A stretch of DNA of 25,340 bases from a virus (lineage: Duplodnaviria > Heunggongvirae > Uroviricota > Caudoviricetes), in the IMG/VR virus record IMGVR_UViG_641736116_000024. One strand, 5' to 3'. The position numbers and the translations under genes are program-made. Under the pieces are notes generated by a model, which worked only from the letters and a program-made list of their open reading frames with translations, ran no database searches and was not told where the DNA came from. Each line of letters opens with the position of its first letter. Position 1 is the first letter of the stretch. Positions 703 to 24,758 of this stretch are shown piece after piece.

Positions 703-722
703 TTTTATTCAGGGTGATTTAT

Positions 723-3667: not shown

Positions 3668-4568
3668 CCGAGCCTCCGGTCACGACGCTGTATTCGGTGC
3701 AGAAAGACGCCTGCGTACTGTTGAGCACAATGTCAGCCAGAGGTGCAGTCAGTTCGACACGTTGCACGCCTTCCACATGCAAAGCGGCATAAATGGCAGA
3801 CAGACGGATGTCGCGCCCAAGCCGGTGCTGTGCCGTGATGTACGCTTCCAGTTTTTTCACGGCAGCAGCGCGGATGGGTTCGCTTTCGGGACCTGGGTAA
3901 AGGTAAAGCGTGGCGTTTATCTGATATTCAACAATGGCGGCAGACTGCACGGTCACGCGGTCGGCCACCGGCCTGACGTCCTCGCCATTAAGGGCGTTAC
4001 GCACCACGGCCAGCAGGTCTTCGGATGCGACGCCGTTATTTTCACGTGACAGCACGGAGATAGTGACGCAGGCCGGAGACGGACTGGTGACAGAGATATC
4101 CGCGACACGCCCGTCAGCACTGCGACCATGATACTGATAGGCTCCCACCGACCCGGCGACGCTTAAGCCCTCAAACGCCTGCTGAATACGCAGACGATAA
4201 TCGGTGTCAGACTCCATCACTGCCGGTGTCGGCGGGATAGTCGAATCATCTGCCGGGGTGATAATCAGGCGTGTGGTGTTGTAATTGGCACCAATCACAT
4301 CAAGGTCATTACCGGCGGCACAGGCCAGCATCACCGCCCGTGCGGCCTCATTCACACGCTGACGCCAGATAAGCTCACGATAAGCATTTTCCTCCAGAAG
4401 TTTGACGAGAGGCTCGGATTCCAGCGTCAGGGTACGGGCGACCGCCTCCTGCTGGTCTTCCGGGTAAAGGGAAATCAGTGTCGCCTTGCGTTCGGCAAGA
4501 ATGGTTTCAAAGTCCAGCTCCTCGACCACATCCGGTGCGGGTAGCTGGTTCAGGTCGATAATCGGCAT
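3660..4568 (-). CDS. J: Baseplate assembly protein gpJ
   Basis: 302 aa, same length as P2 gpJ; synteny W-J-I. Confidence 0.9.
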   Translation of the reverse strand: MPIIDLNQLPAPDVVEELDFETILAERKATLISLYPEDQQEAVARTLTLESEPLVKLLEENAYRELIWRQRVNEAARAVMLACAAGNDLDVIGANYNTTRLIITPADDSTIPPTPAVMESDTDYRLRIQQAFEGLSVAGSVGAYQYHGRSADGRVADISVTSPSPACVTISVLSRENNGVASEDLLAVVRNALNGEDVRPVADRVTVQSAAIVEYQINATLYLYPGPESEPIRAAAVKKLEAYITAQHRLGRDIRLSAIYAALHVEGVQRVELTAPLADIVLNSTQASFCTEYSVVTGGSDE

Positions 4569-4572
4569 GGTT

Positions 4573-4920
4573 TCAACTCACAGGGATGGTTAACGAAAGT
4601 GGCTGGCCGGTGTCGTTGTGCTGGCCGGTTAACGTGACCGTCATTCGCCCGTCAAAACTGCGCTCAGTAGTGACGGATGACAGGGTGACGCGGGGTTCCC
4701 ATTTCAGCACCGCCATGTAACAGGCGACCTTAATCTGCAACTCAAGCGCCGGGGTCTGCGGCTGGTCAATCATTAATGCCAGCAACGAGCCGTAATCACG
4801 ACGCATCACCCGTGAGCCGACCGGTGTACGCAGGATATCGCCGATACTCTGGCTGATATGCTCAAGGTCAGTGACAGTCAGGCCATCACTGCGATTCATT
4901 CCGAGATAACGCGCTGTCAT
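4573..4920 (-). CDS. W: Baseplate protein gpW (gp25/GPW family)
   Basis: 115 aa, same length and position as P2 gpW. Confidence 0.9.
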   Translation of the reverse strand: MTARYLGMNRSDGLTVTDLEHISQSIGDILRTPVGSRVMRRDYGSLLALMIDQPQTPALELQIKVACYMAVLKWEPRVTLSSVTTERSFDGRMTVTLTGQHNDTGQPLSLTIPVS

Positions 4921-5552
4921 AAAGGACTCCCGGTTGTGCCGCCGCTGTCGCCGGGGTGTTTATGGGTATGCAGTACCTTACCGTTTGATGAGAGTTCACC
5001 ACCGGTGTGTTCAATGTTGCCGCGCATCGTCCCGCCCTTCTGTACTTCCAGCGTGCCGGTAATCAGCCTGTTGGTGCAGACCACCTCCGGTGTGTCCAGG
5101 GTGATGCGGGTTGACGCTTTCACCATGACCACCGGCACCGTGGCAGTAACAGAATCAGAAGCCGTCACGCTGGCCGTTTTAATTCCGCTTACCGTCAGTG
5201 CACTGGTTTCAGGTTCATACTCAATCACCGCCCCGTCAGGGAAACGGATATGCAGGGCATCCGCCGACGCAGACGGCGCGGGGTTATCGCCGGAATAAAT
5301 CCCCGGCAGAACAAACGCTGTGTCAAGTTCACCGCCCACGGCCAGAATCAGCACCTGCTCCCCCACGGAAGGTGCCCACCATGTGCGCGAACGCCCGGCA
5401 CGACAAGTCAGCCACTGAAGCCAGTCGGTGCACATGCCGCCGGTCTGCACACGGCAGCGACCGGCGTTAAGGTCGGTTTCGACGACAAGGCCGGTGCGAA
5501 TCATGTTGCGCAGTGCGCGCGCGAGTTCCTGGATATTTGCGAGAGTGTTCAT
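4917..5552 (-). CDS. V: Baseplate spike/assembly protein gpV
   Basis: 211 aa, same length and position as P2 gpV; C-terminal HTHKHPGDSGGTTG motif. Confidence 0.9.
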   Translation of the reverse strand: MNTLANIQELARALRNMIRTGLVVETDLNAGRCRVQTGGMCTDWLQWLTCRAGRSRTWWAPSVGEQVLILAVGGELDTAFVLPGIYSGDNPAPSASADALHIRFPDGAVIEYEPETSALTVSGIKTASVTASDSVTATVPVVMVKASTRITLDTPEVVCTNRLITGTLEVQKGGTMRGNIEHTGGELSSNGKVLHTHKHPGDSGGTTGSPL

Positions 5553-5618
5553 AACGGGAAGGATGCCGCCGGGTCATACCGGCGGCAATGTGACGATGAG
5601 GTGCCAGGAATGGCACAA

Positions 5619-6071
5619 CTAACGGTCGAGGTGAGCCAGGATAATCTCTTCAATCATCTGCACATCCTCACCGGTAAAGCCGAGCAGAGGACGCGCCGGA
5701 TAATCAATTTTCTTACCGTCTTTCCGGTTTTCTTCCGACAGACCGAACTGATGCACGCTGGCGATTTTCGGTGACTTCCCGCCGTAAAACTCCATTGATG
5801 CCTGTTCCTGGCTGGCACGGATATGCAAAAAACGACTGGTAATAAGTTTCGCAAACATTTTTCGCTTAACGCGACCGGTCTTTTTTCTGACGCTCTGCTG
5901 CTGGCGTGGCGCGTAGGGTGTGCCGTCCGGGGCTTTCTGTGTCATCACCCGACGCTGCTGACTCTGCCGCAGACGTTTCGCCAGTTCGGCGCTCAGTCGT
6001 CGACGCCCTGACGGTGACAGCGATTCAGTCAGTCCGGTCAGCCGGTCTTCAAAACGCTTAAACTCATTCAT
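5619..6071 (-). CDS. S: Tail completion protein gpS
   Basis: 150 aa, P2 gpS length and position. Confidence 0.9.
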   Translation of the reverse strand: MNEFKRFEDRLTGLTESLSPSGRRRLSAELAKRLRQSQQRRVMTQKAPDGTPYAPRQQQSVRKKTGRVKRKMFAKLITSRFLHIRASQEQASMEFYGGKSPKIASVHQFGLSEENRKDGKKIDYPARPLLGFTGEDVQMIEEIILAHLDR

Positions 6072-6531
6072 CCCACTTGCTCACCAGTTCGCCATTGATA
6101 TAAAGCTCCATCGGGCGGGTGACCGGCTCCGGCGGCGGAGGTTCCGGGATATTCTTCACATGCAGTGCGCCGACCACCTCACTGACCAGCGTGCGCTCGG
6201 TCAGCATCAGGCTGATGCTGATATCAAAGCTGCTGTCATTGTTGATGTCTGCATAAAACGTGAAGCCCTTTTTCTGGCCTGCGTCGGTGGTCATGATGTC
6301 GGGCTGATTTTCCCGCAGCCACGCCAGCACCGGCACGATGAGCAGGTCAAAATCACCGGTAAAGTCGGTCACAATGACATTGAGCGTGTAACGCTTTTCG
6401 AATGACAGCGACGCCGCCAGTGTGGAGGCAATACTCCCGTTATCCACGAATATCCGCAGCATATCGGGGTTAGTTTTCAGCACCGTGACGGCATCAGTCA
6501 GCGCCCTGCGCAGGCTGTCGGGTTTGAGCAT
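6064..6531 (-). CDS. R: Tail completion protein gpR
   Basis: 155 aa, P2 gpR length and position. Confidence 0.9.
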   Translation of the reverse strand: MLKPDSLRRALTDAVTVLKTNPDMLRIFVDNGSIASTLAASLSFEKRYTLNVIVTDFTGDFDLLIVPVLAWLRENQPDIMTTDAGQKKGFTFYADINNDSSFDISISLMLTERTLVSEVVGALHVKNIPEPPPPEPVTRPMELYINGELVSKWDE

Positions 6532-11820: not shown

Positions 11821-11993
11821 TGTCAGGAGTCCTGAATAGTGATTAGAAGAGTCACATGTCGGCATCAGTTTCCCGACGATGCGCATCCTCCGCCATCAGT
11901 CCCGGATGGCTTATCACTGACACAACAGCACCTTAGCGAATCGCGGGGCGCGACTCAGTAGCCTTGCCGTGTATTCATCACGGCGAGGTATTC
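11821..11993. promoter_or_regulatory. Divergent late promoter region between O and P
   Basis: Intergenic region between divergently transcribed O (minus) and P (plus), as in P2. No clean TGT-N12-ACA activator site was identified by eye. Confidence 0.35.
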
Positions 11994-13766
11994 ATGACCA
12001 TCACCACAGACACCACTCTTTTACACGACCCGCGTCGTCAGGCGGCGCTGCTGTACTGGCAGGGATTTTCCGTGCCGCAGATTGCCGCCATGTTGCAGAT
12101 GAAACGCCCGACGGTGCAGAGCTGGAAACAGCGCGACGGCTGGGACAGCGTTGCCCCCATCAGCCGTGTCGAAATGAGTCTGGAAGCGCGGCTGACCCAG
12201 CTCATCATCAAACCGCAGAAAACCGGCGGTGACTTCAAGGAAATTGACCTGCTCGGACGCCAGATTGAACGACTGGCACGGGTAAACCGCTACAGCCAGA
12301 CCGGCAACGAGGCAGACCTTAATCCGAACATCGCTAACCGCAACAAAGGCGGGCGGCGCAAACCGAAAAAGAATTTTTTCAGTGACGAGGCTATCGAAAA
12401 GCTGGAGCAGATTTTCTTTGAGCAGTCTTTCGAATATCAGTTGCACTGGTATCGCGCCGGGCTTGAGCACCGCATCCGCGATATCCTGAAATCCCGCCAG
12501 ATTGGCGCGACGTTTTATTTTTCCCGCGAGGCGCTGCTGCGCGCCCTGAAAACCGGTCATAACCAGATTTTTCTGTCGGCCAGTAAAACGCAGGCGTATG
12601 TGTTCCGCGAATACATCATCGCCTTTGCCCGGCTGGTTGACGTTGACCTGACCGGTGACCCGATTGTCCTGGGCAATAACAGCGCAAAACTGATTTTTCT
12701 CGGCACCAACTCCAACACCGCGCAGAGCCATAACGGCGACCTGTACGTCGACGAGATTTTCTGGATACCGAATTTTCAGGTACTGCGTAAGGTGGCATCA
12801 GGTATGGCCTCACAGAGTCACCTGCGCTCGACCTATTTCTCCACCCCGTCCACGCTGGCGCACGACGCCTACCCGTTCTGGTCGGGTGAACTGTTCAACC
12901 GGGGACGCGCCAGCGCCGCCGAACGCGTGGAAATCGACGTCAGTCATAACGCTCTTGCCGGTGGGCTTCTCTGTGCGGACGGTCAGTGGCGGCAGATTGT
13001 CACCATTGAGGACGCCCTGAAAGGTGGCTGCACGCTGTTCGACATTGAGCAGCTTAAACGCGAAAACAGCGCCGACGATTTTAAAAACCTGTTCATGTGT
13101 GAATTTGTTGACGACAAGGCGTCGGTGTTCCCGTTCGAGGAGCTGCAACGCTGCATGGTCGACACGCTGGAAGAATGGGAAGACTATGCGCCGTTTGCCG
13201 CGAATCCGTTCGGCTCCCGCCCGGTCTGGATTGGTTACGACCCGTCACACCGTGGCGACAGTGCCGGATGCGTGGTGCTGGCACCGCCGGTGGTGGCCGG
13301 TGGCAAATTCAGAATACTTGAGCGTCACCAGTGGAAAGGCATGGACTTTGCCACCCAGGCTGAATCCATCCGCAAACTCACCGAAAAATACAACGTCGAA
13401 TACATCGGAATTGATGCCACCGGCCTCGGTGTCGGCGTGTTCCTGCTCGTTCGCTCGTTCTATCCCGCCGCACGCGATATCCGCTACACGCCGGAAATGA
13501 AAACCGCAATGGTGCTCAAGGCAAAAGACGTTATTCGCCGTGGCTGTCTGGAATATGACGTCAGCGCCACCGACATCACCAGCTCGTTTATGGCTATCCG
13601 CAAGACCATGACCAGCAGCGGACGCAGCGCCACCTATGAGGCCAGCCGCAGCGAGGAAGCCAGCCACGCCGACCTCGCCTGGGCGACCATGCACGCCCTG
13701 TTAAATGAGCCACTCACCGCCGGTATCAGCACCCCGCTGACATCCACCATTCTGGAGTTTTACTGA
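11994..13766 (+). CDS. P: Terminase ATPase (large) subunit gpP
   Basis: Start MTITTDTTLLHDPRRQAALLYWQGF with GAGGT upstream gives 590 aa; stop overlaps the Q start. Confidence 0.9.
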   Translation: MTITTDTTLLHDPRRQAALLYWQGFSVPQIAAMLQMKRPTVQSWKQRDGWDSVAPISRVEMSLEARLTQLIIKPQKTGGDFKEIDLLGRQIERLARVNRYSQTGNEADLNPNIANRNKGGRRKPKKNFFSDEAIEKLEQIFFEQSFEYQLHWYRAGLEHRIRDILKSRQIGATFYFSREALLRALKTGHNQIFLSASKTQAYVFREYIIAFARLVDVDLTGDPIVLGNNSAKLIFLGTNSNTAQSHNGDLYVDEIFWIPNFQVLRKVASGMASQSHLRSTYFSTPSTLAHDAYPFWSGELFNRGRASAAERVEIDVSHNALAGGLLCADGQWRQIVTIEDALKGGCTLFDIEQLKRENSADDFKNLFMCEFVDDKASVFPFEELQRCMVDTLEEWEDYAPFAANPFGSRPVWIGYDPSHRGDSAGCVVLAPPVVAGGKFRILERHQWKGMDFATQAESIRKLTEKYNVEYIGIDATGLGVGVFLLVRSFYPAARDIRYTPEMKTAMVLKAKDVIRRGCLEYDVSATDITSSFMAIRKTMTSSGRSATYEASRSEEASHADLAWATMHALLNEPLTAGISTPLTSTILEFY

Positions 13767-14800
13767 TGAGCAAGAAAAAAGGGAAAACACCGCAACCTGC
13801 GGCAAAAAAAATGACCGCCAGCGCCCCGAAAATGGAGGCATTCACCTTTGGTGAACCGGTGCCGGTACTCGACCGCCGTGACATTCTGGATTACGTCGAG
13901 TGCATCAGTAACGGCAGATGGTATGAGCCACCGGTCAGCTTTACCGGTCTGGCAAAAAGCCTGCGTGCTGCCGTACATCACAGCTCACCGATTTACGTCA
14001 AACGTAATATTCTGGCTTCAACGTTTATTCCGCACCCGTGGCTTTCCCAGCAGGATTTCAGCCGCTTTGTGCTGGATTTTCTGGTGTTCGGTAATGCGTT
14101 TCTGGAAAAGCGTTACAGCACCACCGGTAAGGTCATCAGACTGGAAACCTCACCGGCAAAATATACCCGCCGTGGCGTGGAGGAGGATGTTTACTGGTGG
14201 GTGCCGTCCTTCAACGAGCCGACAGCCTTCGCGCCCGGCTCCGTGTTTCACCTGCTGGAGCCGGATATTAATCAGGAGCTGTACGGCCTGCCGGAATATC
14301 TCAGCGCCCTTAATTCTGCCTGGCTGAATGAGTCGGCCACGCTGTTCCGCCGCAAGTATTACGAAAACGGCGCTCATGCCGGATATATCATGTACGTCAC
14401 CGATGCCGTGCAGGATCGCAACGATATCGAAATGCTTCGCGAAAACATGGTCAAGTCGAAAGGCCGCAACAACTTTAAAAATCTGTTTCTCTATGCCCCG
14501 CAGGGGAAAGCCGACGGCATTAAAATTATCCCGCTCAGTGAAGTGGCAACGAAGGACGATTTTTTTAATATCAAAAAAGCCAGCGCCGCTGACCTGCTGG
14601 ACGCGCACCGCATCCCCTTTCAGTTGATGGGCGGCAAGCCGGAGAACGTCGGGTCGCTGGGTGATATTGAGAAAGTGGCAAAGGTCTTTGTCCGCAATGA
14701 GCTTATCCCGCTACAGGACAGGATCCGCGAGATAAACGGCTGGCTCGGTCAGGAGGTCATCCGCTTTAAAAACTACTCACTGGACACTGACAACGGCTGA
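13766..14800 (+). CDS. Q: Portal vertex protein gpQ
   Basis: 344 aa, P2 gpQ length and position. Confidence 0.95.
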   Translation: MSKKKGKTPQPAAKKMTASAPKMEAFTFGEPVPVLDRRDILDYVECISNGRWYEPPVSFTGLAKSLRAAVHHSSPIYVKRNILASTFIPHPWLSQQDFSRFVLDFLVFGNAFLEKRYSTTGKVIRLETSPAKYTRRGVEEDVYWWVPSFNEPTAFAPGSVFHLLEPDINQELYGLPEYLSALNSAWLNESATLFRRKYYENGAHAGYIMYVTDAVQDRNDIEMLRENMVKSKGRNNFKNLFLYAPQGKADGIKIIPLSEVATKDDFFNIKKASAADLLDAHRIPFQLMGGKPENVGSLGDIEKVAKVFVRNELIPLQDRIREINGWLGQEVIRFKNYSLDTDNG

Positions 14801-14969: not shown

Positions 14970-14988
14970 GTGCTTTCCCCGCCTCGCC
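14970..14988. other. cos: cos site (19-nt cohesive end sequence)
   Basis: GTGCTTTCCCCGCCTCGCC is the exact reverse complement of the P2 cohesive end GGCGAGGCGGGGAAAGCAC as I recall it; it lies between Q and the cargo region, as in P2. Confidence 0.8.
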
Positions 14989-15117
14989 CGCCCGCTTCAT
15001 GTGGCGATTTTAATGCGGTTGCATTTTTATCGAAAGTCTCGTCTCACAAATCCCTCCCTTCACTAAATAGACTCATTATCCACATGCAATCTAATTCAAA
15101 AAAATGCATGTATAGTA

Positions 15118-17088
15118 TTAAAGGTCATCAATTAAACCTAAAGGCAAACCGTCCTCACCAACCGAGCTATAATGAGCGATAATATTCGAAAGTTCACCAG
15201 TAGAAAACGAATTAGGCAAATCATTATCAACTAATATAATCTGGCACGGAACATTTTTTCTTTCTGCTTTTTGAACTGTATTCAATAGTTGTTCATAAAT
15301 ATTTTGATACTTCATCGGATCTGACATTCCCTCAAGGTCATCCTCGAATGCAAGAGTTTCTTTTGAATATTTTTCCTTGGTCTGTTTCCCTAAATATTTG
15401 CCAACCGTATCAAATATCAAAAGTAAAGGATGGTTAACATTATGATCTATTGCATAATCAAGAATAGACAAAAGATACCCAATAGAAGAAATAGTTCTCA
15501 AACCTCCGGATGTTATTTTAAAATATTCTTTTTCTCTTATAACAGGAATGTAATAGCTTTCAGAGATTTTTATCCCCGTTCTGTTTTTGATATTAATACC
15601 CTTCAAATACTGACTAAATCTATCACCCAAACCTTGTAAAATGCCCTCCATGCTAGGTGCGTTTTTCTTTAACGCCTCCAAGCGTTCAGTTAATGCTTCA
15701 ATATCTTTTCTCAGTACCTGATACTTTTCAAGCAGTTCCTCTTGCTGGTTTCTAACCTTCAAATCTTTTACTAACTGCTCCCTAACCTTCTCATTTTTTG
15801 AGATCTCTTTAATATAAAAATCTCTCTGAGTCAAGAATGGTGTAATCATTGACTGGCTTTCTTCGTCAATCAATTCTCTCAACTCGTCAAGTCGTTCATC
15901 TAATTCCTTTTTATAACCTGATTCTTTTTTTAATTTAAATGACATTTCTGAGATCATGTCATTAATATTTCGTCTACGTCGACTAAGTGAATTCAACTCT
16001 TCATTAAGATCTTTTTCTGATGAAATTTCAAATGGAAAATCAGAATCATCTATTTTAATGTGGCTATCACAGACTGGACAGGAAAATACTTCCTTATCCA
16101 ATACACCAATGCGAGAATTTGCTGTTTTAATCGCTTTGAGTTTTTCAATATCATTATCATAGTCATTTTTTAACCGCGAATATTTATCAATCTTATCCTC
16201 AAGCGCAGTAATATTTAATATGCACTCTTTGTATTTAAGCGAAATAAAATTGTGAGCATCTTTCAATTCTGTATACTGTATGGAATCCGCTTTCATATTT
16301 TTATCGAGAGCAGACAAACCTGCAACAAGTTCTTCTAAAACAAGATCTATCCTATTAATCTCATCATCAATTGATTCAATCGTTTCATAGTCTGTATCGC
16401 GAAGAAATTCAGATATTATCTGATACTTCCTATTTAATTCCGTTACTAAACTACTTTTTGCAGATATTTCACCTTGGAGTCTGGCGATGCTTTCATCCAA
16501 CACATTGAACATGTATTTAAAAACTTCTTTCGTAAATGCGTAGCGGGACCAATCACCCAATCGCAAGAAAGATTTACTACCAATATCATCCTGACTTACA
16601 TAAACAAATTTATATATATTTCTAAAACTTAACCTGCGCATCTGTGAATGAGCTTTAGAAGGAGACACCTTAATTTCAATCTTTGGAAAATTAAGACTAT
16701 CAAGTAAAAACTCCGAAAAAACACCATCAACATTTGATAATGGGCTATAATTAGGAGCGTATTTTTTCGGAAAATGTTTATGTAAATCATCAAACTTACA
16801 ACGATAAACTTCTATTGCTTTTTTATGATCATAGATATCTCTTACGATTGTGAATACAGTATCATTGATCACTACTTCAAGAGCAGCATAGTTTACTGAT
16901 GTTTTTATTTCATCTGCTAAATCTATAGAGCTAGCACCTAAAAGATAATTAATAAACTCCAGAATGCTTGACTTACCTGTGTCAGAGTCTCCGTAGATAA
17001 CATTGAGACCTTTATAAAAAGTAGTGACGTAGTTTTTACGAACGCCAACAAGAATCAAACTATTGATATTGAGATATGATTTCATCAT
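15118..17088 (-). CDS. ABC/SMC-Rad50-like ATPase with central coiled coil and CxxC zinc hook; ATPase component of an ABC-three-component (Lamassu-like) system
   Basis: 656 aa. Walker A GDSDTGKS (aa 33-40); long charged, heptad-rich middle containing CPVCDSH; C-terminal signature-like KITSGGLR; Walker B/D-loop LLLIFDTVG. No TOPRIM or nuclease domain recognised. Start overlaps the upstream stop (ATGA). Confidence 0.75.
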   Translation of the reverse strand: MMKSYLNINSLILVGVRKNYVTTFYKGLNVIYGDSDTGKSSILEFINYLLGASSIDLADEIKTSVNYAALEVVINDTVFTIVRDIYDHKKAIEVYRCKFDDLHKHFPKKYAPNYSPLSNVDGVFSEFLLDSLNFPKIEIKVSPSKAHSQMRRLSFRNIYKFVYVSQDDIGSKSFLRLGDWSRYAFTKEVFKYMFNVLDESIARLQGEISAKSSLVTELNRKYQIISEFLRDTDYETIESIDDEINRIDLVLEELVAGLSALDKNMKADSIQYTELKDAHNFISLKYKECILNITALEDKIDKYSRLKNDYDNDIEKLKAIKTANSRIGVLDKEVFSCPVCDSHIKIDDSDFPFEISSEKDLNEELNSLSRRRRNINDMISEMSFKLKKESGYKKELDERLDELRELIDEESQSMITPFLTQRDFYIKEISKNEKVREQLVKDLKVRNQQEELLEKYQVLRKDIEALTERLEALKKNAPSMEGILQGLGDRFSQYLKGINIKNRTGIKISESYYIPVIREKEYFKITSGGLRTISSIGYLLSILDYAIDHNVNHPLLLIFDTVGKYLGKQTKEKYSKETLAFEDDLEGMSDPMKYQNIYEQLLNTVQKAERKNVPCQIILVDNDLPNSFSTGELSNIIAHYSSVGEDGLPLGLIDDL

Positions 17089-17597
17089 TTCTCCTTGAAG
17101 ACTTGATTTATAACAGAGTTTAACTTAGAGGTAGGCAATGCTTGTAGCGGTAACAATGCTTCGGATAGTCGTTTTATTTCTTTAAAATATCCATCAGTCA
17201 ATGAGCTAGCAAATTCCTTACCTTTTTCAGATAAAAATAATTTAACACTCTCATTATTTTTTTTCTCAGCTGAGAGCAATCCCCGCAATGACATAATTTT
17301 TATAAGATATTTCACTTTGGAATTGTCGAATAAGATATCTACATTTGTTGAAAAACTCTTTATTGTATAAGTTAACTGGGACTCGACACAAGCAGGCTTT
17401 TTCCCCGAAACTGTAAGAGCATAATCAATTTTTGATGGGTTTTTTATCAGATACATAAAAATTTGTATTTTATTAATATCTAATGATAACACTCCTTTTT
17501 TGCTATGAGATAATATAGATATAGCAATGGCAAGCATAGCAAAATTCAAGCTATACTCTTCATCAAGAGGAATATACGGCAAGTTATTTTTCTTCAT
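17085..17597 (-). CDS. Small middle component of the three-gene system (LmuC-like position)
   Basis: 170 aa with no recognisable motifs; AT-rich; translationally coupled on both sides (14-nt and 4-nt overlaps). Confidence 0.5.
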   Translation of the reverse strand: MKKNNLPYIPLDEEYSLNFAMLAIAISILSHSKKGVLSLDINKIQIFMYLIKNPSKIDYALTVSGKKPACVESQLTYTIKSFSTNVDILFDNSKVKYLIKIMSLRGLLSAEKKNNESVKLFLSEKGKEFASSLTDGYFKEIKRLSEALLPLQALPTSKLNSVINQVFKEK

Positions 17598-18807
17598 GAT
17601 TACCTCGCCGTAATTGCTCCAAAGTTTCTACGCTGGTTTCAGATGACCAGACAATATCCCTGTCATTTTTGTTAGCCAGTTGATGCAACATTCCTTTCTT
17701 ATGTATCGTTTCTAAACTTTTTATAAGAGAATCTAACGACGACTTATCCTCTTGGGCTATTCGTCTATGAACAGCAGCAATAAATTTATCTGGGGAAATT
17801 GAATTCGCGATATATTGCTCATACTCTTCCTGGTAAATCTCCCTTATTTTAGAATACAAATGACCAAGTAGTTTCCTATCGTAATCACTCGTAAAAATAT
17901 TTCTCGCAAGCTCAGCATTATAATAATATTCCTTTGCATGCATAGCGATATCCTGATGTATATCTGCGACAATCATTTTTAAGACGAAATACTCATTATC
18001 ATATTGTTTCTCATCAGAAAAACGCTCAACACATATCTTCTTGGGTGCTTCTAAATTTATCTGCTGAATAAATTGCTTTACCGCAACAAACACTGTAGAC
18101 GAGCTGTTTTCGGGCTTGCAAATTGAGCTATGCCCTTCATTAACTGCAATTGAGTTATTTCGTTCACTATCCATCGGTAATGCGCTTTTTTTATCAACTA
18201 TAGTGTCATGAGAACCATAAACATATCTAGTGATAGGAAGTTTTTTGCTACAATTTATCCAGCGCCTATTCAACGTATCGGTCGCTTCACTTAACAATCC
18301 AAGATCTACTAACTGAGCATTTGAAGATACCATTGAAGTTATATTCGCCAATTTAGCACCAAAGTGAGGGACTGCTAACGAAATGAATCCAATTATATTA
18401 GATTGTTCCTCATGCTCAACTTTTTTTAGAATTAGATTTTTTGATATTACCCCCCCCATACTATGGGCGATTATTATAATTCGAGAGTAATCACTTAGCG
18501 TTACCCTAATCTCAGTATACAATAACTCAGCTATTTCATCAGTTGGTAAATTTCTCTCTAACTTATTTTTCTTAGAGAAAATACGAGCCCATAATCCTGA
18601 CGTTTTAGCATACGTTTGTGTAAATTTGGTGAAATAATTGAAACATGCAATATCAAATACATTGCCAATGTCTTCATCTTCTGCTAATAGTTTTGGAAAT
18701 GAAGTTTCTTTATTAAAGTTCCATGTTTCCAAACCACCATTTAATCCATGTACAAATAGTATCAGGCTATCTTTTTTCTCGTGGCTTATCCATTCAACCA
18801 TGCTCAT
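17584..18807 (-). CDS. Alpha/beta-hydrolase (lipase/esterase-like) effector with a C-terminal helical domain; LmuA-like effector position
   Basis: 407 aa. Oxyanion-hole LILFVHG (His20-Gly21), nucleophile elbow IIIAHSMGG (Ser116), downstream YVYGSHDTIVD and NEGHSS as candidate Asp/His. C-terminal about 180 aa is helical and charged. Confidence 0.7.
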   Translation of the reverse strand: MSMVEWISHEKKDSLILFVHGLNGGLETWNFNKETSFPKLLAEDEDIGNVFDIACFNYFTKFTQTYAKTSGLWARIFSKKNKLERNLPTDEIAELLYTEIRVTLSDYSRIIIIAHSMGGVISKNLILKKVEHEEQSNIIGFISLAVPHFGAKLANITSMVSSNAQLVDLGLLSEATDTLNRRWINCSKKLPITRYVYGSHDTIVDKKSALPMDSERNNSIAVNEGHSSICKPENSSSTVFVAVKQFIQQINLEAPKKICVERFSDEKQYDNEYFVLKMIVADIHQDIAMHAKEYYYNAELARNIFTSDYDRKLLGHLYSKIREIYQEEYEQYIANSISPDKFIAAVHRRIAQEDKSSLDSLIKSLETIHKKGMLHQLANKNDRDIVWSSETSVETLEQLRRGNHEEK

Positions 18808-18896
18808 ATGCTTTTCTGCCGTGTATAAAAATTAAACTATAACAAACAATTCCTCAACAATAACATATTGTTACCCCGTTTGACCGTTTTTTTCAA
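18808..18896 (-). promoter_or_regulatory. Putative promoter region for the cargo operon
   Basis: AT-rich intergenic spacer between the A stop and the hydrolase start, with TATAGT and TATACA -10-like hexamers on the minus strand. No experimental support. Confidence 0.3.
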
Positions 18897-21179
18897 CTAC
18901 CACTCACGCTGTCTGTCAAAAAAGTCGATATCGTTATCAAATTTAAAACGCTTATGCCCAAAATCCAAAACAGCTCCGCGAGCGAGAGCTTCAAGCTCCC
19001 AATAACTAGCCTGAATGTCACTTTGTGCAAGAAGAACCTTAATTTTCGGGATAGTCTTTCTCTCCTGCCTTGTCAACCGGGCGGATGGGGCAGGAAAGTA
19101 GCTTCGACCATTGAAAGGGGTAAAGCTCTGCTGTGAACGATTACTGCATTTCAGTTCATTACTCAATAAGTCTCTAAGTACCTTCATAATGCCTGGCTCG
19201 GTCCAACTTAGAATCCCTTCATCTATTAAATTTAACACCGCTGCAGCATGCTCAGTCGGTGTGGGAGCCGGTAACGAAGTATCACCACCGGTGAGTTTTC
19301 CACAGTTATTGACAGGACTCCGAGGCGCGGCGATGCCGCTTTTTAAAGTCAAAGGCTCAACGACCGGAACTTTCGGCACAATGCGCCAGTCCGTCGTTCT
19401 GGTGATATGAATATGACGCGCGCCGAGATGCGGCGCGTAAATGCCGACCACTCTCTCGACTTCTTCCTCGTACTCGTTAACGTCATCCGACGGGCTACGG
19501 GCGACCCTGACAGTCTGACAATCGCGCGGGACATTTGCCCCACCCTGCGCGCTGATATACAACGCAAAATCACCACTGTCTGCGGCAGCGCGAGCAGCCT
19601 CGACGCGTTCGTCAAACTCATCAGCAATACTGACGCCGCGAGGCAATTTGCGTAGTTCACGGTAAGCCCCCATTGTCGGCAGTCCAACCGTTTTAAATTG
19701 CGGAATGCGCCACGTTGACGCCCATGCGGTAACAGCCGCGGCAGTATCTTTAAGCGGCTTACCGGTATCGTTATCGAGCTGACCATCCAGTGCATAGCCG
19801 TCGATGTTTTTTGAAATGTATTTCGCGATATATCCCGCAGCACCGCCCCGGTTAAGGTGTTTTGCCTGAAAACGGTTTCGCGCAGCTCCTCTTTCGTCTC
19901 CATCCTCTTTGAGCGCGTAGCGACGCATGATTTCGATAATCTGGTTACGCTGGCGTGGATTACAAAAAAGCATCATATGCCAGTGCGGCGTTCCGTCGTG
20001 GTGTGGCTCGACGACACGCAAACCGTAGACCTGTAAATCATTATCCTTGAATGCCGTGCGCATCAGGCTCCAGATGCGGCAGAGATAACGCTGCGCATCC
20101 TTTGGATTAAATGCCTCATCGTTCCAGCCGTGATTAAGCTGAACGGTTTTACTTTCGCCTTTTCTGACCTGACGTGTCGGGTGATACTTTGACGGCGCGG
20201 TCAGCGTGATAAACATCCCCACATCACCCTCTGCGGCGGCGTAACGCTCAATACCGGCAATGGTGTTCATCAGCTCCATCCGGCGAATTTCAGGATTAGA
20301 AATACTGCCCATCACCTTACTGATAAGGTCGATGCGCTCGCCGGTTTCCCTGTTTTCAAGGTCACACGATTTAAGAAATTCCAGATTTGCCTGGCGGCGC
20401 GCACGCACATCACGAATGGCGTGTTTACTGGCATAAGGAGAACGGTCTTTATTGACCTCCCCGACAGCTATCAGTAACGCTTCATGCCAGCGCATACGCT
20501 GGCCTTTAAGCTGATGAGTCCACCACTCATCGTTAAACAGACGGGCAATGGCAGAATATGCCTGCCTCGTGGTCATCTGCCCTTTACGGTATATTTTCCA
20601 GTAGAGAGGGGAAATATTGAAAGCACGTGCAGCGCCAGCAACATGACCATAGAGGTGAGCCTGCGCCTCATCCGTAAACAGCGATTCTTTTTCGCCATGC
20701 GCATCCACCCAGGCATCACTGAGTTCCCCATACATCATGAAAAGCTGCGATGAGATACGGGCAGCAAACTTTTTCAGCTCCTTGTCATTCATTCCCGGCA
20801 GGCGCGCATAGTGGTCACGCTCTGCCAGAAACAGTAACGACGCGTCGGTGTTCATTTCATGGCGCTGATTCACACGCTCAATGCGCGGCCATAAACGACG
20901 CTGAAAAGTGGATGTGAGGAAATAAAACCCGTGCACCGGGCTTTTATTGCGCCGGATGTGGTCATAGCGTGAAGTAAACAGCGAGCGCAAAAAGTAAGGC
21001 AGGCGGTTAATCGTGGATAAAACACCTTGCACCTGACGCATCTCGTCACGTGTAAGGGGTCTTTCGCGCCCGACGGCCTCGCGTGGCGCGTTCCATGCAT
21101 AAGCACCGGTAAACGCCTTACCGGTGCCTGCAGCAAATGCTGACGGAGGGACAAAACGCCCGGAGGCTTTAACGGCCAT
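18897..21179 (-). CDS. A: Replication initiation endonuclease gpA (rolling-circle initiator)
   Basis: Start MAVKASGRFVPPSAFAAGTGK as in P2 gpA, giving about 760 aa. The ORF track extends 14 codons upstream. The C-terminal region of about 100 aa is AT-rich and appears to diverge from P2 gpA as I recall it. Confidence 0.9.
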   Translation of the reverse strand: MAVKASGRFVPPSAFAAGTGKAFTGAYAWNAPREAVGRERPLTRDEMRQVQGVLSTINRLPYFLRSLFTSRYDHIRRNKSPVHGFYFLTSTFQRRLWPRIERVNQRHEMNTDASLLFLAERDHYARLPGMNDKELKKFAARISSQLFMMYGELSDAWVDAHGEKESLFTDEAQAHLYGHVAGAARAFNISPLYWKIYRKGQMTTRQAYSAIARLFNDEWWTHQLKGQRMRWHEALLIAVGEVNKDRSPYASKHAIRDVRARRQANLEFLKSCDLENRETGERIDLISKVMGSISNPEIRRMELMNTIAGIERYAAAEGDVGMFITLTAPSKYHPTRQVRKGESKTVQLNHGWNDEAFNPKDAQRYLCRIWSLMRTAFKDNDLQVYGLRVVEPHHDGTPHWHMMLFCNPRQRNQIIEIMRRYALKEDGDERGAARNRFQAKHLNRGGAAGYIAKYISKNIDGYALDGQLDNDTGKPLKDTAAAVTAWASTWRIPQFKTVGLPTMGAYRELRKLPRGVSIADEFDERVEAARAAADSGDFALYISAQGGANVPRDCQTVRVARSPSDDVNEYEEEVERVVGIYAPHLGARHIHITRTTDWRIVPKVPVVEPLTLKSGIAAPRSPVNNCGKLTGGDTSLPAPTPTEHAAAVLNLIDEGILSWTEPGIMKVLRDLLSNELKCSNRSQQSFTPFNGRSYFPAPSARLTRQERKTIPKIKVLLAQSDIQASYWELEALARGAVLDFGHKRFKFDNDIDFFDRQREW

Positions 21180-21444: not shown

Positions 21445-21665
21445 GCCGTTCTCCGGTAACGTTTGTTTTTTGCTTCAAAGACTGACTGACAGGAAACACA
21501 ACGCGTGGCTGACGGGTAAGCCGCACGACGGGCAGCAGGTATTGGCGCGTCACACTCTTCGCAAACCAGCGCAGAAGCACCGCAATGTTTTACCCTTGCC
21601 GCGTTAATCTGGCGCTCCAGTAATTCAGCCTGTTGTTCCTGAATAAAATCTACGTTGTCCGGCAT
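21441..21665 (-). CDS. TraR/DksA-family C4 zinc-finger protein (P2 orf82 position)
   Basis: 74 aa with CGASALVCEECDAPIP...RCVSCQ, i.e. two CxxC pairs. Confidence 0.7.
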   Translation of the reverse strand: MPDNVDFIQEQQAELLERQINAARVKHCGASALVCEECDAPIPAARRAAYPSATRCVSCQSVFEAKNKRYRRTA

Positions 21666-21667
21666 TA

Positions 21668-21970
21668 TCAGCTCCTTTTATCGTTAAGTTTCCTGGATAC
21701 ATCAGCGCAATAACTGGCAAGTTCTGTCGTTAATTTTGTCAGTTCATCCACTGAGGAAATTTGCTTGTGGAATACAGCGCGTTTAACAAGTAAATTGACC
21801 ACATCAGACAGGAGGTTTAATTCATTCTGATAAATCGCGATAACAGATTCAGTTATGTCGCGTTTTTCTTTATCAAGGCAAAGTTGAATAAGAGACAAAT
21901 CGCCATTTTTCATAACGGCGATTTTTAAGGCGTTATTCAGTAATACAACTGAATGAGAACAGGACATCAA
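21668..21970 (-). CDS. Hypothetical early protein (P2 orf81 position)
   Basis: 100 aa ORF in the early operon. Confidence 0.55.
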
Positions 21971-22191
21971 AGCACCTCCCCGCGAGACAATCCGATATTG
22001 TGAAATTTTTCCGACTCCTGACTGAGCAGCTCGACTATCTCCACGCGGGATAACTCCGCCTTTGTGATATGGCGAATCATGGCGTCAAGATGAGAAGAAA
22101 AGCGTGTCGCTGCGTCGGCCTGTGCTTCGGCTCTGGCCTGTTGCAGCAGTAATGCGTATTTACCGCACTTGTTTTCAGAAACTGTATGCAT
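21967..22191 (-). CDS. Hypothetical early protein (P2 orf80 position)
   Basis: 74 aa ORF in the early operon. Confidence 0.55.
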
Positions 22192-22946: not shown

Positions 22947-23208
22947 CGAGACCTAACCACATCAACCAGCCGTCACGAATCTCTTTAGGACGGCTTTCAT
23001 AAGCCAGTTTTAGTCCGTTATTCCATGCCGGAAGGTATACCCAATATTCACCAGCACGCCCCGATACTGACTGAGGGTCAGTAATCTCAATAACTGGTAA
23101 TTTCCCTTTCTCAATCATGCCCCTTACAGCTCTTGGAGTTTTACCAATGAGTTTTGCAAACTCCTGATAAGGCACGGCATCAGTCACGCTTACAAGCTGT
23201 CTATTCAT
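22933..23208 (-). CDS. cox: Cox: excisionase and repressor of the lysogenic promoter
   Basis: 91 aa; contains IPYQEFAKLIGK...GKLPVI...GRAGEYWVYLPAWNNGLKLAYESRPKEIRDGWLMWLGLGEPR matching P2 Cox; first gene of the early operon. Confidence 0.9.
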   Translation of the reverse strand: MNRQLVSVTDAVPYQEFAKLIGKTPRAVRGMIEKGKLPVIEITDPQSVSGRAGEYWVYLPAWNNGLKLAYESRPKEIRDGWLMWLGLGEPR

Positions 23209-23233
23209 CTGCTACGATTCTCCCTTAGTGCTT

Positions 23234-23252
23234 CTAATGGCTCCTAATGGCT
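23234..23252. promoter_or_regulatory. Tandem direct repeat CTAATGGCT x2 in the cox/C switch region (candidate repressor operator half-sites)
   Basis: CTAATGGCT at 23234-23242 and 23244-23252, 10 bp apart, between divergent cox and C. P2-type repressors bind directly repeated half-sites. Confidence 0.4.
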
Positions 23253-23329
23253 AATTATTGCCTAAAAGGATAACTCCAGAAGCACAACATTTCACACTAT
23301 CAGCAAGAAATTACGCAATCGGAGTAATT

Positions 23330-23629
23330 ATGTCAATAGACGTTTCGGAGAAGTTGAAGCTAATCCGTGAATCTGAAAGGTTAAACCGTAAAGAATTCAG
23401 TGAATTAACTGGTGTAGCCTACAGCTCACTTTCGAGCTATGAGAGCCGGTCAAAAAACGCTGGAGTTGAAGCCATAATGAAGGTCTTACAACATCCTAGA
23501 TTTACTAAATATACTTTGTGGTTCATGACTGATCAGGTAGCTCCAGAAGCCGGGCAAATTGCGCCCGCTCTCGCACACTTTGGGCAAAACGAAACAACGT
23601 CGCCCCACTCCGGTCAAAAGACTGGTTAA
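23330..23629 (+). CDS. C: Immunity repressor C
   Basis: Start MSIDVSEKLKLIRESERLN with GGAG upstream gives 99 aa; C-terminus PRFTKYTLWFMTDQVAPEAGQIAPALAHFGQNETTSPHSGQKTG matches P2 C. The ORF track extends 24 codons upstream. Confidence 0.9.
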   Translation: MSIDVSEKLKLIRESERLNRKEFSELTGVAYSSLSSYESRSKNAGVEAIMKVLQHPRFTKYTLWFMTDQVAPEAGQIAPALAHFGQNETTSPHSGQKTG

Positions 23630-23744
23630 CAATTTATCGTGAATATATTCATCACAAGTGCCTACTATTGGTGGCTAAATTTCAGCCACCACGAAAAAAG
23701 CGATTAGTAGTAGCAAAAAAAAGTACCACTCGGAGGGTTTTCTG

Positions 23745-24758
23745 ATGGCAATCAAAAAACTCGATGATGGTCGATATGAAGTGGACATCCGCCCTACTGG
23801 ACGTAACGGAAAACGCATCCGTAGGAAGTTTGATAAGAAAAGCGAAGCTGTCGCTTTCGAAAAATACACGTTGTACAACCACCACAATAAAGAATGGCTA
23901 TCAAAACCAACAGACAAACGACGTCTGTCGGAACTGACACAGATCTGGTGGGATTTAAAGGGTAAACACGAAGAGCATGGGAAATCTAATCTTGGAAAAA
24001 TTGAAATCTTCACAAAAATAACGAATGACCCATGCGCATTTCAAATCACGAAATCCCTTATCAGCCAGTACTGCGCCACCCGAAGAAGTCAGGGTATTAA
24101 ACCTTCGAGTATCAATCGTGATTTAACATGTATTAGCGGCATGTTTACAGCCCTGATTGAAGCGGAGTTATTCTTTGGTGAGCATCCTATCAGAGGGACA
24201 AAGAGGCTTAAGGAGGAAAAACCAGAAACAGGCTATCTCACACAGGAAGAAATAGCCTTACTGCTTGCAGCACTTGACGGCGACAATAAAAAGATTGCGA
24301 TTCTTTGCCTAAGTACAGGAGCACGTTGGGGAGAAGCAGCTCGTTTGAAAGCAGAAAATATCATCCATAACCGCGTCACGTTTGTTAAAACGAAAACAAA
24401 CAAACCACGCACCGTCCCGATCTCAGAGGCTGTTGCCAAAATGATCGCGGATAACAAACGAGGTTTTTTATTCCCTGATGCTGATTACCCTCGCTTCAGA
24501 CGAACAATGAAAGCAATAAAACCGGATTTGCCAATGGGGCAAGCCACACATGCACTAAGGCACAGCTTTGCCACTCATTTCATGATTAATGGAGGAAGTA
24601 TTATCACGCTACAACGGATACTAGGTCACACGCGGATTGAGCAAACTATGGTTTACGCTCATTTTGCGCCAGAGTACCTTCAGGACGCCATTTCTCTTAA
24701 TCCGCTAAGAGGTGGTACTGAGGCCGAGAGTGTCCACACAGTGTCCACAGTAGAGTAA
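23745..24758 (+). CDS. int: Tyrosine integrase (P2 Int)
   Basis: 337 aa; catalytic region HALRHSFATHF...LGHTRIEQTMVYAHF gives the R-H-R-Y signature. Confidence 0.95.
   Translation: MAIKKLDDGRYEVDIRPTGRNGKRIRRKFDKKSEAVAFEKYTLYNHHNKEWLSKPTDKRRLSELTQIWWDLKGKHEEHGKSNLGKIEIFTKITNDPCAFQITKSLISQYCATRRSQGIKPSSINRDLTCISGMFTALIEAELFFGEHPIRGTKRLKEEKPETGYLTQEEIALLLAALDGDNKKIAILCLSTGARWGEAARLKAENIIHNRVTFVKTKTNKPRTVPISEAVAKMIADNKRGFLFPDADYPRFRRTMKAIKPDLPMGQATHALRHSFATHFMINGGSIITLQRILGHTRIEQTMVYAHFAPEYLQDAISLNPLRGGTEAESVHTVSTVE

What the first reader, a model, noticed from the sequence alone, without database searches (positions are those of the whole stretch)
14989..19250. AT-rich island with one boundary at cos and the other inside the 3' end of gene A
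The sequence shifts visibly from the GC-balanced phage backbone to AT-rich sequence right after cos and stays AT-rich through the three cargo genes. The AT-rich character continues into the last 100 or so codons of A, where the encoded C-terminus also seems to differ from P2 gpA as I recall it. This suggests the cargo was acquired by recombination that replaced the C-terminus of the replication initiator.
Basis: partly seen in the sequence, partly recalled or inferred. Interest (0 to 1): 0.5.

Follow-up and report, generated by a model that had tools for sequence, protein, structure and literature searches.

The report
Defence cassette swap reaching into gpA
An AT-rich three-gene Lamassu anti-phage cassette sits in the well-known variable slot between the replication gene A and cos of a P2-like E. 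coli O157:H7 prophage. It arrived by recombination that also swapped in a divergent but homologous last 120 codons of gene A, so this is a clear example of a known hotspot rather than a new kind of element.

Summary
GC falls from about 53% to 33% just after cos (14970-14988) and stays low through three minus-strand genes. The last 361 nt of gene A are intermediate at 44%.

The cargo is a short, lipase-type Lamassu (ABC-3C) system, lmuA-lmuC-lmuB. Rousset et al. 2022 already catalogued and cloned it from the P2 gpA-gpQ hotspot as "Hydrolase + SMC".

gpA is about 98% identical to P2 gpA up to window position 19258, 64 nt past the ori nick. It then drops abruptly to about 50% nt and 45% aa identity, but stays colinear and keeps the conserved residues of the domain.

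The same AT-richer C-terminal allele family accompanies related Lamassu cassettes in P2-like prophages attributed to Klebsiella and Enterobacter, and in a metagenome contig. These backbones differ, and the breakpoint is the same.

Among 81 P2-type loci, 51 have their homology boundary inside the A 3' end. The A tail co-varies with the cargo; sequence upstream of ori does not.

Best explanation: homologous cassette exchange between P2-like phages, anchored on the conserved ori core and on cos, with the post-ori part of A hitch-hiking.

Novelty is modest.

The parts
14970..14988 (.). cos: the 19-nt cohesive-end sequence (GTGCTTTCCCCGCCTCGCC, reverse complement of P2 GGCGAGGCGGGGAAAGCAC)
   Evidence: Read directly from the sequence. 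It aligns with the annotated cosR of P2 AF063097.
14989..15024 (.). cos-proximal block shared with P2, STYP1 and L-413C. Sequence homology with phages carrying other cargo ends here on this side.
   Evidence: Alignment. The block is conserved at more than 90% across 83 cos flanks.
15025..15117 (.). AT-rich spacer followed by a position-conserved TGCAT/ATGCA array (15084-15110), ending 8 nt before the lmuB stop codon
   Evidence: The TGCAT position histogram over 64 distinct flanks peaks 100-129 nt from cos whatever the cargo. Function was not tested.
15118..17088 (-). lmuB: SMC/Rad50-like ATPase of Lamassu. It has a Walker A motif (GDSDTGKSS) and a CPVC zinc-hook motif.
   Evidence: PADLOC LmuB, E=1.5e-235 over the full length. 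Weak Pfam SMC_N/AAA_23 matches. Motifs read from the translation.
17085..17597 (-). lmuC: ABC-3C middle component 4, 170 aa, intact
   Evidence: Pfam MC4, E=5e-27, above the curated cut-off. PADLOC LmuC, E=1.5e-52.
17584..18807 (-). lmuA: effector with an N-terminal alpha/beta-hydrolase (DUF676/PGAP1, lipase-like) domain and a C-terminal ABC-3C CTD8 domain
   Evidence: Pfam CTD8, E=1.7e-35; DUF676, E=4e-9. PADLOC LmuA, E=3.5e-108.
18808..18896 (-). 89-nt, 30% GC intergenic region between the A stop codon and lmuA. It is the likely promoter region of the cassette.
   Evidence: Composition. There is one weak sigma-70-like match on the minus strand, 18896-18867, but the scan found no more matches than in shuffled sequence, so this is an inference only.
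18897..19257 (-). Divergent 3' allele of gene A (codons 641-760 plus stop). It is homologous to the P2 gpA C-terminal domain, at about 50% nt and 45% aa identity, with 44% GC.
   Evidence: In E. coli complete genomes it is always contiguous with lmuA (96 of 96 matches).
19257..19258 (.). Recombination junction. The last base of the P2-identical run (...GGCTCCCACACC) is 19258. This is 64 nt downstream of the position homologous to the P2 ori nick.
   Evidence: Alignments. The nick position comes from the P2 annotation.
19298..19362 (-). ori core inside gene A (GTTGAGCCTTTGAC.TTAAAAAGCGGC...GCCGCGCCTCGGAGTCCTGTCAATAACTGTGGAAA). The position homologous to the P2 nick is about 19321.
   Evidence: The 23-nt anchor is identical in seven backbones whose A genes otherwise differ by up to about 25%. 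P2 rep_origin annotation.
19258..21179 (-). P2-type part of gene A (codons 1-640): the HUH rolling-circle initiator domain, with the HWH motif and the YIAKY tyrosines
   Evidence: 98% aa identity to P2 gpA. Pfam Phage_GPA, E=8e-122.

Best explanation
**What it is.** The window is a P2-like prophage of E. coli O157:H7. The AT-rich island is the occupant of the known cos-adjacent gpA-gpQ hotspot of P2-like phages, the 'TO region'. The occupant is a short, lipase-type Lamassu (ABC-3C) defence operon, lmuA-lmuC-lmuB, transcribed towards cos.

**How it got there.** The cassette was installed by homologous recombination with another P2-like phage.
- One crossover lay at or next to cos.
- The other lay within about 65 nt downstream of the ori nick inside gene A.

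The ori core and cos are both cis-acting sites. They stay almost invariant between P2-like phages whose genes are otherwise about 25% diverged, so they provide the homology for exchange.

**Consequence for gene A.** Everything between the two sites travels as one unit: the last 120 codons of A, the intergenic promoter region and the cargo. The prophage therefore carries a chimeric gpA. It has a P2-type catalytic part and ori, joined to a donor-type, AT-richer C-terminal domain that is still a homologue of the P2 one.

**Shown:** the composition shift; the sharp breakpoint; homology of the replaced domain; the same allele family and breakpoint with related cassettes in other backbones; co-variation of the A tail with cargo.

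**Inferred:** homologous recombination as the process; ori and cos as its anchors; activity of the chimeric gpA and of the Lamassu system.
For: **Composition and coordinates:**

**Cargo identity:**. The same cassette is listed as the P2-hotspot system 'Hydrolase + SMC' (pFR106, from REL606) in Rousset 2022, and its cloning primer ends in this variant A stop codon. The hotspot is described in PMC9122126 and PMC13586616.

**Breakpoint:**

**Tight linkage in E. coli:** 96 complete genomes carry the island. All 96 matches to the lmuA/A-3' junction fragment cover both parts, and no genome has one part alone. The same five IMG/VR contigs carry both.

**Module less diverged than its flanks:** in three carriers the cargo and A-3' allele are 99.2-99.7% identical to the window, against about 97% for both flanks.

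**Cross-backbone evidence:** related cassettes (LmuB 83-87% aa identity) occupy the same slot in prophages attributed to K. aerogenes and E. asburiae and in a metagenome contig. The gpA N-terminal/C-terminal identity matrix gives:
- window-P2 98/45
- window-E. asburiae 77/63
- NDM6-E. asburiae 90/38
- E. asburiae-L106 93/79

The E. asburiae versus NDM6 nucleotide profile breaks at the same place.

**Invariant ori core:**

**Generality:**
- Breakpoints against P2 in 81 loci: 7 just after ori, 44 in the last ~100 nt of A, 30 with none.
- The last 20 codons of A match in 79% of locus pairs with the same cargo start, against 3% of pairs with different cargo.
- The 600 nt upstream of ori are equally similar in both groups, 97.0% against 96.8%. 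The pairs are not independent, so the P value from that call should not be taken at face value.

**No sign of another insertion route:** there are no flanking direct repeats and no recombinase or transposase gene in the island.
Against: - No donor with a near-identical A-3' allele was found. The best relatives are 55-63% aa identical, so the actual donor lineage and the date of the event are unknown.
- All E. coli carriers share one junction and about 98% similar prophages. Linkage within E. coli could therefore be a single inherited event.
- The related cassette in a Rouxiella prophage (LmuB 72%) has an unrelated A C-terminal allele. In a 186-like element (LmuB 75%) it sits beside a quite different A end. 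The cassette has thus also moved without this allele.
- Recombination itself, and the role of ori and cos as anchors, are inferred from sequence patterns only.
- The only experimental test of this cassette, on the REL606 copy, found no defence, although the LmuC listed for that copy is truncated.
Confidence: 0.8

Rival explanations
1. The exchange is driven by programmed DNA breaks. The gpA nick at ori and the terminase cut at cos create recombinogenic ends, so the segment between them is swapped preferentially. Under this view, conserved homology at the two sites is not the main cause.
For: The swapped unit is bounded by exactly these two cleavage sites. No breakpoint lies upstream of the nick in 81 loci, and 7 lie within about 60-125 nt downstream of it. 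Rousset 2022 already speculated that cos ends promote recombination.
Against: Most boundaries (44 of 81) lie in the last ~100 nt of A, 330-420 nt from the nick. That fits ordinary crossovers in a flanking gene. Breakpoints close to ori are also expected simply because the ori core is the only highly conserved stretch between diverged donors.
Confidence: 0.25
2. The gpA C-terminal allele is functionally co-adapted with the Lamassu cassette, and this rather than physical adjacency explains their linkage. For example, the allele might keep the phage's own replication from triggering a sensor of replication intermediates, or it might carry regulatory signals for the cassette.
For: The allele family accompanies related Lamassu cassettes in at least three different backbones. 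Lamassu is reported to sense DNA ends and phage replication origins (PMC12663957). The allele shows very few differences among carriers, 1-3 in 361 nt.
Against: The two features are only 89 nt apart, so hitch-hiking is sufficient. A tails co-vary with unrelated cargos of every kind. The Rouxiella and 186-like carriers lack this allele. Other cargos come with truncated A ends of 707 and 723 aa, which argues that the domain tolerates change rather than being matched to cargo.
Confidence: 0.08
3. The A 3' end diverged in place through relaxed or diversifying selection or local hypermutation, without any exchange.
For: The A C-terminal tail is the fastest-varying part of the gene across P2-like phages.
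Against: The change from about 98% to about 50% nt identity occurs within a few bases. GC3 shifts from 55% to 42%. The same allele family and breakpoint occur in other backbones. Among carriers the segment is more conserved than its flanks.
Confidence: 0.04
4. Foreign DNA was inserted by illegitimate or site-specific recombination or by a transposon, overwriting the end of A with unrelated sequence that happens to stay in frame.
For: Some other cargos do come with novel, non-homologous or truncated A tails: VG35A2 with SIR2 cargo (707 aa), and L033 and L040.
Against: In this window the replaced segment is colinear with gpA and keeps the conserved residues of the domain. The island has no flanking direct repeats, integrase or transposase.
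Confidence: 0.03

Closest known systems
P2 'TO region', the cos-adjacent gpA-gpQ defence hotspot of P2-like phages (Rousset et al. 2022, PMC9122126; PMC13586616)
   Same: Same slot between gpA and cos/gpQ. The cargo is AT-rich and unrelated to that of near-identical backbones (old/tin in P2; Fic, CDT, retron, DUF4238 and SIR2 in relatives). This very cassette is listed there as 'Hydrolase + SMC'.
   Different: Those studies define the locus gene by gene, between gpA and gpQ, and treat GpA as a core gene with little linkage to defence genes. Here the boundary is inside gpA, just past ori, and the last 20-120 codons co-vary with the cargo. I could not read Nilsson 2004 or Odegrip 2006, which may already mention this.
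Short Lamassu with a lipase effector and zinc hook ('Lamassu Ec-Lipase', PMC12663957); ABC-3C systems
   Same: Three components with the same domain set: LmuA hydrolase/lipase with a C-terminal ABC-3C domain, LmuC middle component, and LmuB SMC-like ATPase with Walker A and CxxC motifs. A relative protects against lambda-vir.
   Different: It is not the same protein set. The published mutant positions (LmuB K42, LmuA H215) do not match the residue numbering here. Activity of this copy is untested, and the REL606 copy gave no defence in one panel.
Hitch-hiking of flanking-gene alleles during homologous replacement of variable loci (for example, genes flanking bacterial O-antigen or capsule loci). 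This comparison rests on my general knowledge, not on a tool result.
   Same: Divergence rises sharply in the conserved flanking gene towards the variable locus. Flank alleles co-vary with the cargo.
   Different: Here the flank is the replication initiator of a phage. The inner limit of hitch-hiking coincides with its origin of replication, which lies inside the gene.

Membership tests
P2-like phage gpA-gpQ (TO region) hotspot occupant | Lies between the replication gene A and the portal gene Q, next to cos | tested here: met
   Q at 13766-14800 (+), cos at 14970-14988, cargo at 15118-18807, A at 18897-21179 (-). Gene order matches P2 AF063097.
P2-like phage gpA-gpQ (TO region) hotspot occupant | Cargo is unrelated to that of phages with near-identical flanks, and has a lower GC content | tested here: met
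   100 phage records match only the flanks, at most 21% of the query. Cargo GC is 32-42% in 81 loci, against about 56% upstream of ori.
Lamassu / ABC-3C | LmuB: SMC/Rad50-like ATPase with a coiled coil | tested here: met
   PADLOC LmuB, E=1.5e-235, profile positions 3-641 of 643. Walker A and CPVC motifs are visible in the translation.
Lamassu / ABC-3C | LmuA: an effector domain fused to an ABC-3C C-terminal domain | tested here: met
   Pfam CTD8 at 122.5 bits (cut-off 27.6) plus DUF676 at 36.7 bits (cut-off 20.3). PADLOC LmuA, E=3.5e-108.
Lamassu / ABC-3C | LmuC: the middle component | tested here: met
   Pfam MC4 at 95.3 bits (cut-off 28.1). PADLOC LmuC, E=1.5e-52.
Lamassu / ABC-3C | Confers anti-phage defence | not testable with these tools
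   The REL606 copy gave no defence in Rousset 2022, with LmuC listed as 50 aa. A related E. coli lipase-type Lamassu protects against lambda-vir.
P2 gpA (HUH rolling-circle initiator, Pfam Phage_GPA) | Phage_GPA domain with the HUH motif and the paired active-site tyrosines | tested here: met
   Pfam Phage_GPA at 406.7 bits. PHWHMM and GYIAKYISK are identical to P2 in the alignment.
P2 gpA (HUH rolling-circle initiator, Pfam Phage_GPA) | ori and nick site lie within the coding sequence | tested here: met
   The 23-nt sequence around the annotated P2 nick is identical at window 19303-19325. Nicking itself was not tested.
P2 gpA (HUH rolling-circle initiator, Pfam Phage_GPA) | P2-type C-terminal domain (residues ~641-761) | tested here: inconclusive
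   The segment is homologous and colinear but only 45% identical. The conserved residues are kept. The model shows two helical parts and a helix-helix-hairpin with pLDDT 78, and has no significant PDB match. Function is unknown.
Transposon or site-specific insertion (considered and rejected) | Flanking direct repeats or att-like duplication, and a recombinase or transposase gene | tested here: not met
   No bounding repeats beyond chance 14-16-mers. Only the three Lamassu genes lie in the island.

The most novel reading that the evidence does not exclude
The post-ori C-terminal domain of gpA is more than a passive hitch-hiker. It would be a cargo-matched module, with initiator-tail alleles co-adapted to the adjacent defence system. 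For a Lamassu system, reported to sense replication origins and DNA ends, the linked allele could keep the phage's own rolling-circle replication from triggering its cargo. The unit of exchange would then be 'initiator tail plus immune system'.
Probability: 0.08. Interest if true: 0.65.

Novelty: new member of a known kind. Interest (0 to 1): 0.3.

Why it matters
The island itself is ordinary: a catalogued Lamassu cassette in the well-studied P2 defence hotspot.

The useful part is the anatomy of the boundary.
- The exchanged unit runs from just past the origin of replication, inside gene A, to cos.
- The tail of the replication initiator changes together with the cargo.
- The same breakpoint recurs in different phage backbones.

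This gives direct sequence evidence for the homologous-recombination route of defence-system turnover, which recent papers left as speculation. It points to two conserved cis-acting sites as the anchors.

It may also partly explain why gpA is so often annotated as a pseudogene or looks poorly conserved at its end. And it shows that the gpA C-terminal ~120 residues tolerate replacement or truncation.

Tried and rejected
**Searches for the donor of the A-3' allele**
- blastn at 'distant' sensitivity against 50,697 phage records: no match.
- tblastn against the same records: only P2-type alleles, 44-50% identical.
- Word-indexed protein search: one 122-aa fragment at 50% identity.
- Scan of one genome per species: only a spurious Clostridia hit.
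- Exhaustive search of cluster representatives: fragments at 50% identity or less, plus one 49-residue stretch at 76%.

No close donor was found.

**Other checks that led nowhere**
- Plasmids: no close copy of the cargo. The best hit is 64.5% identical over 39% of the query, in a Klebsiella chromosome-sized record.
- Foldseek of the modelled C-terminal domain against the PDB: nothing with E below 2.
- Rfam over the whole window: no match.
- Repeat search: no bounding repeats.
- Promoter and terminator scan of the island: no more promoter-like sites than in shuffled sequence. It found the expected terminator after Q.

**Literature I could not read**
- Nilsson 2004, Odegrip 2006 and Christie & Calendar 2016 are not held. 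I therefore cannot exclude that the sub-genic boundary in A was already described.

**Explanations rejected**
- Divergence in place.
- Non-homologous overwrite of the end of A.
- A composition artefact.

The reasons are given under the rival explanations.

Full report
**Setting.** The window is a P2-like prophage. The 5.3 kb around the finding is 100% identical to many E. coli O157:H7 chromosomes, for example TW14359. The gene order is tail genes, terminase P (11964-13766, +), portal Q (13766-14800, +), cos, three minus-strand cargo genes, replication gene A (18897-21179, -), early genes, and integrase (23745-24758, +). cos is GTGCTTTCCCCGCCTCGCC at 14970-14988, the reverse complement of the P2 cohesive end.

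**Observation.** The composition shift is real and large.
- All 400-nt windows between 15001 and 19000 have 30-37% GC. No window elsewhere is below 40%.
- The island is 33.3% GC, against 53.1% for the rest.
- The drop occurs within about 50 nt after cos.
- On the other side GC rises in steps. The last 361 nt of A are 44.3% GC (GC3 41.7%). The rest of A is 53.5% (GC3 54.6%), and the homologous 361 nt of P2 are 52.4% (GC3 50.8%).

**Cargo.** The three genes form a Lamassu (ABC-3C) system.
- lmuA (17584-18807): an alpha/beta-hydrolase of the DUF676/PGAP1 type plus CTD8.
- lmuC (17085-17597): middle component 4.
- lmuB (15118-17088): an SMC-like ATPase with Walker A and CPVC motifs.

Rousset et al. 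2022 list this cassette among P2-hotspot systems as 'Hydrolase + SMC'. They cloned it from REL606 as pFR106, and their reverse primer ends in the variant A stop codon seen here. It appears among the constructs with no activity against their panel. The LmuC they list is only 50 aa, whereas the window's is 170 aa. A related E. coli lipase-type Lamassu with a zinc hook protects against lambda-vir, and Lamassu is reported to sense DNA ends and replication origins.

**Gene A.** gpA here is 760 aa.
- Against P2 gpA it is 98% identical up to residue 640 and 45% identical afterwards.
- At nucleotide level, identity to P2, STYP1 and L-413C is about 97-99% up to ...GGCTCCCACACC (window 19258). It then falls at once to about 50%.
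- The annotated P2 nick site maps to about 19321, so the junction is 64 nt downstream of the nick.
- The replaced segment is colinear with P2 gpA and keeps the invariant and nearly invariant residues of an alignment of 15 diverse C-terminal domains (PSARLT..E...I..I...L......WELEALARGA).
- An AlphaFold model (pLDDT 78) shows two helices, a disordered linker, and a confident helix-helix-hairpin unit. It has no significant PDB match.

The C-terminus was therefore replaced by a homologous allele, not by unrelated sequence.

**Linkage within E. coli.** 96 of 5,426 complete genomes carry the island. A query spanning the lmuA 5' end and the A-3' allele gives 96 matches, and every one covers both parts. 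The same five IMG/VR contigs carry both.

The carriers are about 98% similar prophages at the same integration site next to yegR, so this linkage alone could reflect a single event. However, in three carriers the cargo and A-3' allele are 99.2-99.7% identical to the window, while both flanks are about 97%. The module and the backbone therefore have partly separate histories.

**Evidence from other backbones.** The closest LmuB relatives lie in the same A-cos slot of other P2-like prophages:

| Carrier | LmuB identity |
|---|---|
| K. aerogenes | 87% |
| E. asburiae | 86% |
| Metagenome contig L106 | 83% |
| 186-like element | 75% |
| Rouxiella | 72% |

The first three have A genes whose N-terminal parts are only 76-80% identical to the window. 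Their C-termini nevertheless belong to the same allele family (…WTEP…KC..RSQQ.F.PF.G.SY.PAPSARLT…IPKIK…YWELEALARGA.L.FG…FFDR..EW) and are 55-63% identical to the window. P2 and NDM6 reach only 44-45%.

The E. asburiae A gene is about 90% nt identical to that of E. coli NDM6, which carries different cargo, until just past ori. It is then about 45% identical. The protein figures are 90% for the N-terminal part and 38% for the C-terminal part. This is the same breakpoint in an independent backbone.

The allele family is AT-richer in all four carriers, at 44-46% GC against 52-53%.

The Rouxiella and 186-like carriers have other A ends, so the cassette has also moved without this allele.

**Anchors.** A stretch of about 65 nt around the nick is nearly invariant in seven backbones whose A genes otherwise differ by up to about 25%. 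Within it, a 23-nt anchor is identical in all seven. On the other side, cos plus about 36-55 nt is likewise conserved. These two cis-acting sites are the obvious homology available for crossovers between diverged P2-like phages. This step is an inference.

**Generality.** I collected 80 IMG/VR loci with a P2-type ori region. With the window and P2 added to these, 81 loci had ori, cos and 600 nt of upstream sequence and were analysed.
- Homology to P2 ends just after ori in 7 loci: 3 Lamassu, 2 SIR2, 2 other.
- It ends within the last ~100 nt of A in 44 loci.
- It does not end within A in 30 loci.
- No locus has a boundary in between.

The gpA tails form many alleles that track cargo size. The last 20 codons are the same in 79% of locus pairs sharing the cargo start, against 3% of other pairs. 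The 600 nt upstream of ori show no such difference, at 97.0% against 96.8%. The pairs are not independent, so the P value from that call should not be taken at face value.

Other cargos come with shortened or novel A ends:
- 723 aa with DUF4238 in TOK-001.
- 707 aa with SIR2 in VG35A2, where the annotation pipeline calls A a pseudogene.

A boundary inside the 3' end of A is therefore the rule for this hotspot. This island is one of the deep cases.

**Alternatives.** Divergence in place does not fit the abrupt junction, the GC3 shift, or the shared allele in other backbones. Transposition or site-specific insertion is not supported, because there are no bounding repeats and no recombinase. Break-stimulated exchange, from the ori nick and the cos cut, and functional co-adaptation of the A tail with Lamassu both remain possible and were not tested.

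**Comparison with what is known.** The TO region, or gpA-gpQ hotspot, is established, as are its AT-rich and rapidly exchanged cargo and this cassette. The papers I could read define the locus between whole genes. They report little linkage between defence genes and GpA as a whole, and they leave the recombination route open.

The sub-genic boundary just past ori and the cargo-linked gpA tail are a refinement I did not find there. The older primary papers could not be read.

**Verdict.** The feature is a well-resolved example of a known phenomenon, and interest is modest.

Noticed in passing
window 15084-15110, and the same position in 83 related loci: A phased TGCAT/ATGCA array lies on the cargo side of cos. 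In 64 distinct cos flanks, TGCAT starts 20-29 nt from cos in 60 flanks, 100-109 nt in 59, 110-119 nt in 35 and 120-129 nt in 33, and almost nowhere else within 400 nt. This holds whatever the cargo, and a variable spacer of about 55 nt lies in between. In P2 the distal array lies next to the mapped starts of the old-tin transcript. It could be part of the packaging signal or a promoter/operator.
   Followed up: partly
window 1-1166 (+) next to 1138-3059 (-): A second tail-fibre C-terminal segment (Gp53-like_C) and a second tail-fibre assembly gene lie in inverted orientation beside the tail-fibre gene and its assembly gene. This layout is typical of an invertible host-range segment. No invertase gene is visible inside the window.
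   Followed up: no
gpA residue ~641 (window ~19257); proteins P0001, P0125, P0126, P0130, P0137, P0144: Many database ORFs of 100-130 aa begin with Met exactly at the post-ori domain boundary of gpA (MTPTPSEQAAAVLNL...). They are probably fragments or leftover A 3' ends, such as the N-terminally truncated A in E. coli YJ1. An internal start was not excluded.
   Followed up: no
Rousset 2022 Table S2 (pFR106), compared with window 17085-17597: The only experimental test of this cassette used the REL606 copy, whose LmuC is listed as 50 aa. The window's LmuC is 170 aa, and other B-strain records annotate an intact gene. The negative defence result may therefore not apply to this copy.
   Followed up: partly
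L012 (E. coli VG35A2) 4436-6454; L014 (E. coli YJ1) 5999-6406: The annotation pipeline labels gpA as 'incomplete' where the cargo came with a novel A tail (VG35A2, SIR2 cargo; the ORF reads through to 707 aa), or where only the 3' end of A survives (YJ1). This may contribute to the reported excess of 'primase' pseudogenes in P2-like elements.
   Followed up: no
L016/L017 (prophage attributed to K. aerogenes) ~4940-4950: In this carrier, the Lamassu-linked gpA C-terminal allele is interrupted by two consecutive in-frame stop codons (…NRS**NFNS…), while the cassette is intact. This looks like a decaying prophage that retains its defence genes.
   Followed up: no
window 21600-22000 and 23000-24400: There are further, milder low-GC stretches (40-42%) in the early and immunity-integrase region. 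They were not examined.
   Followed up: no
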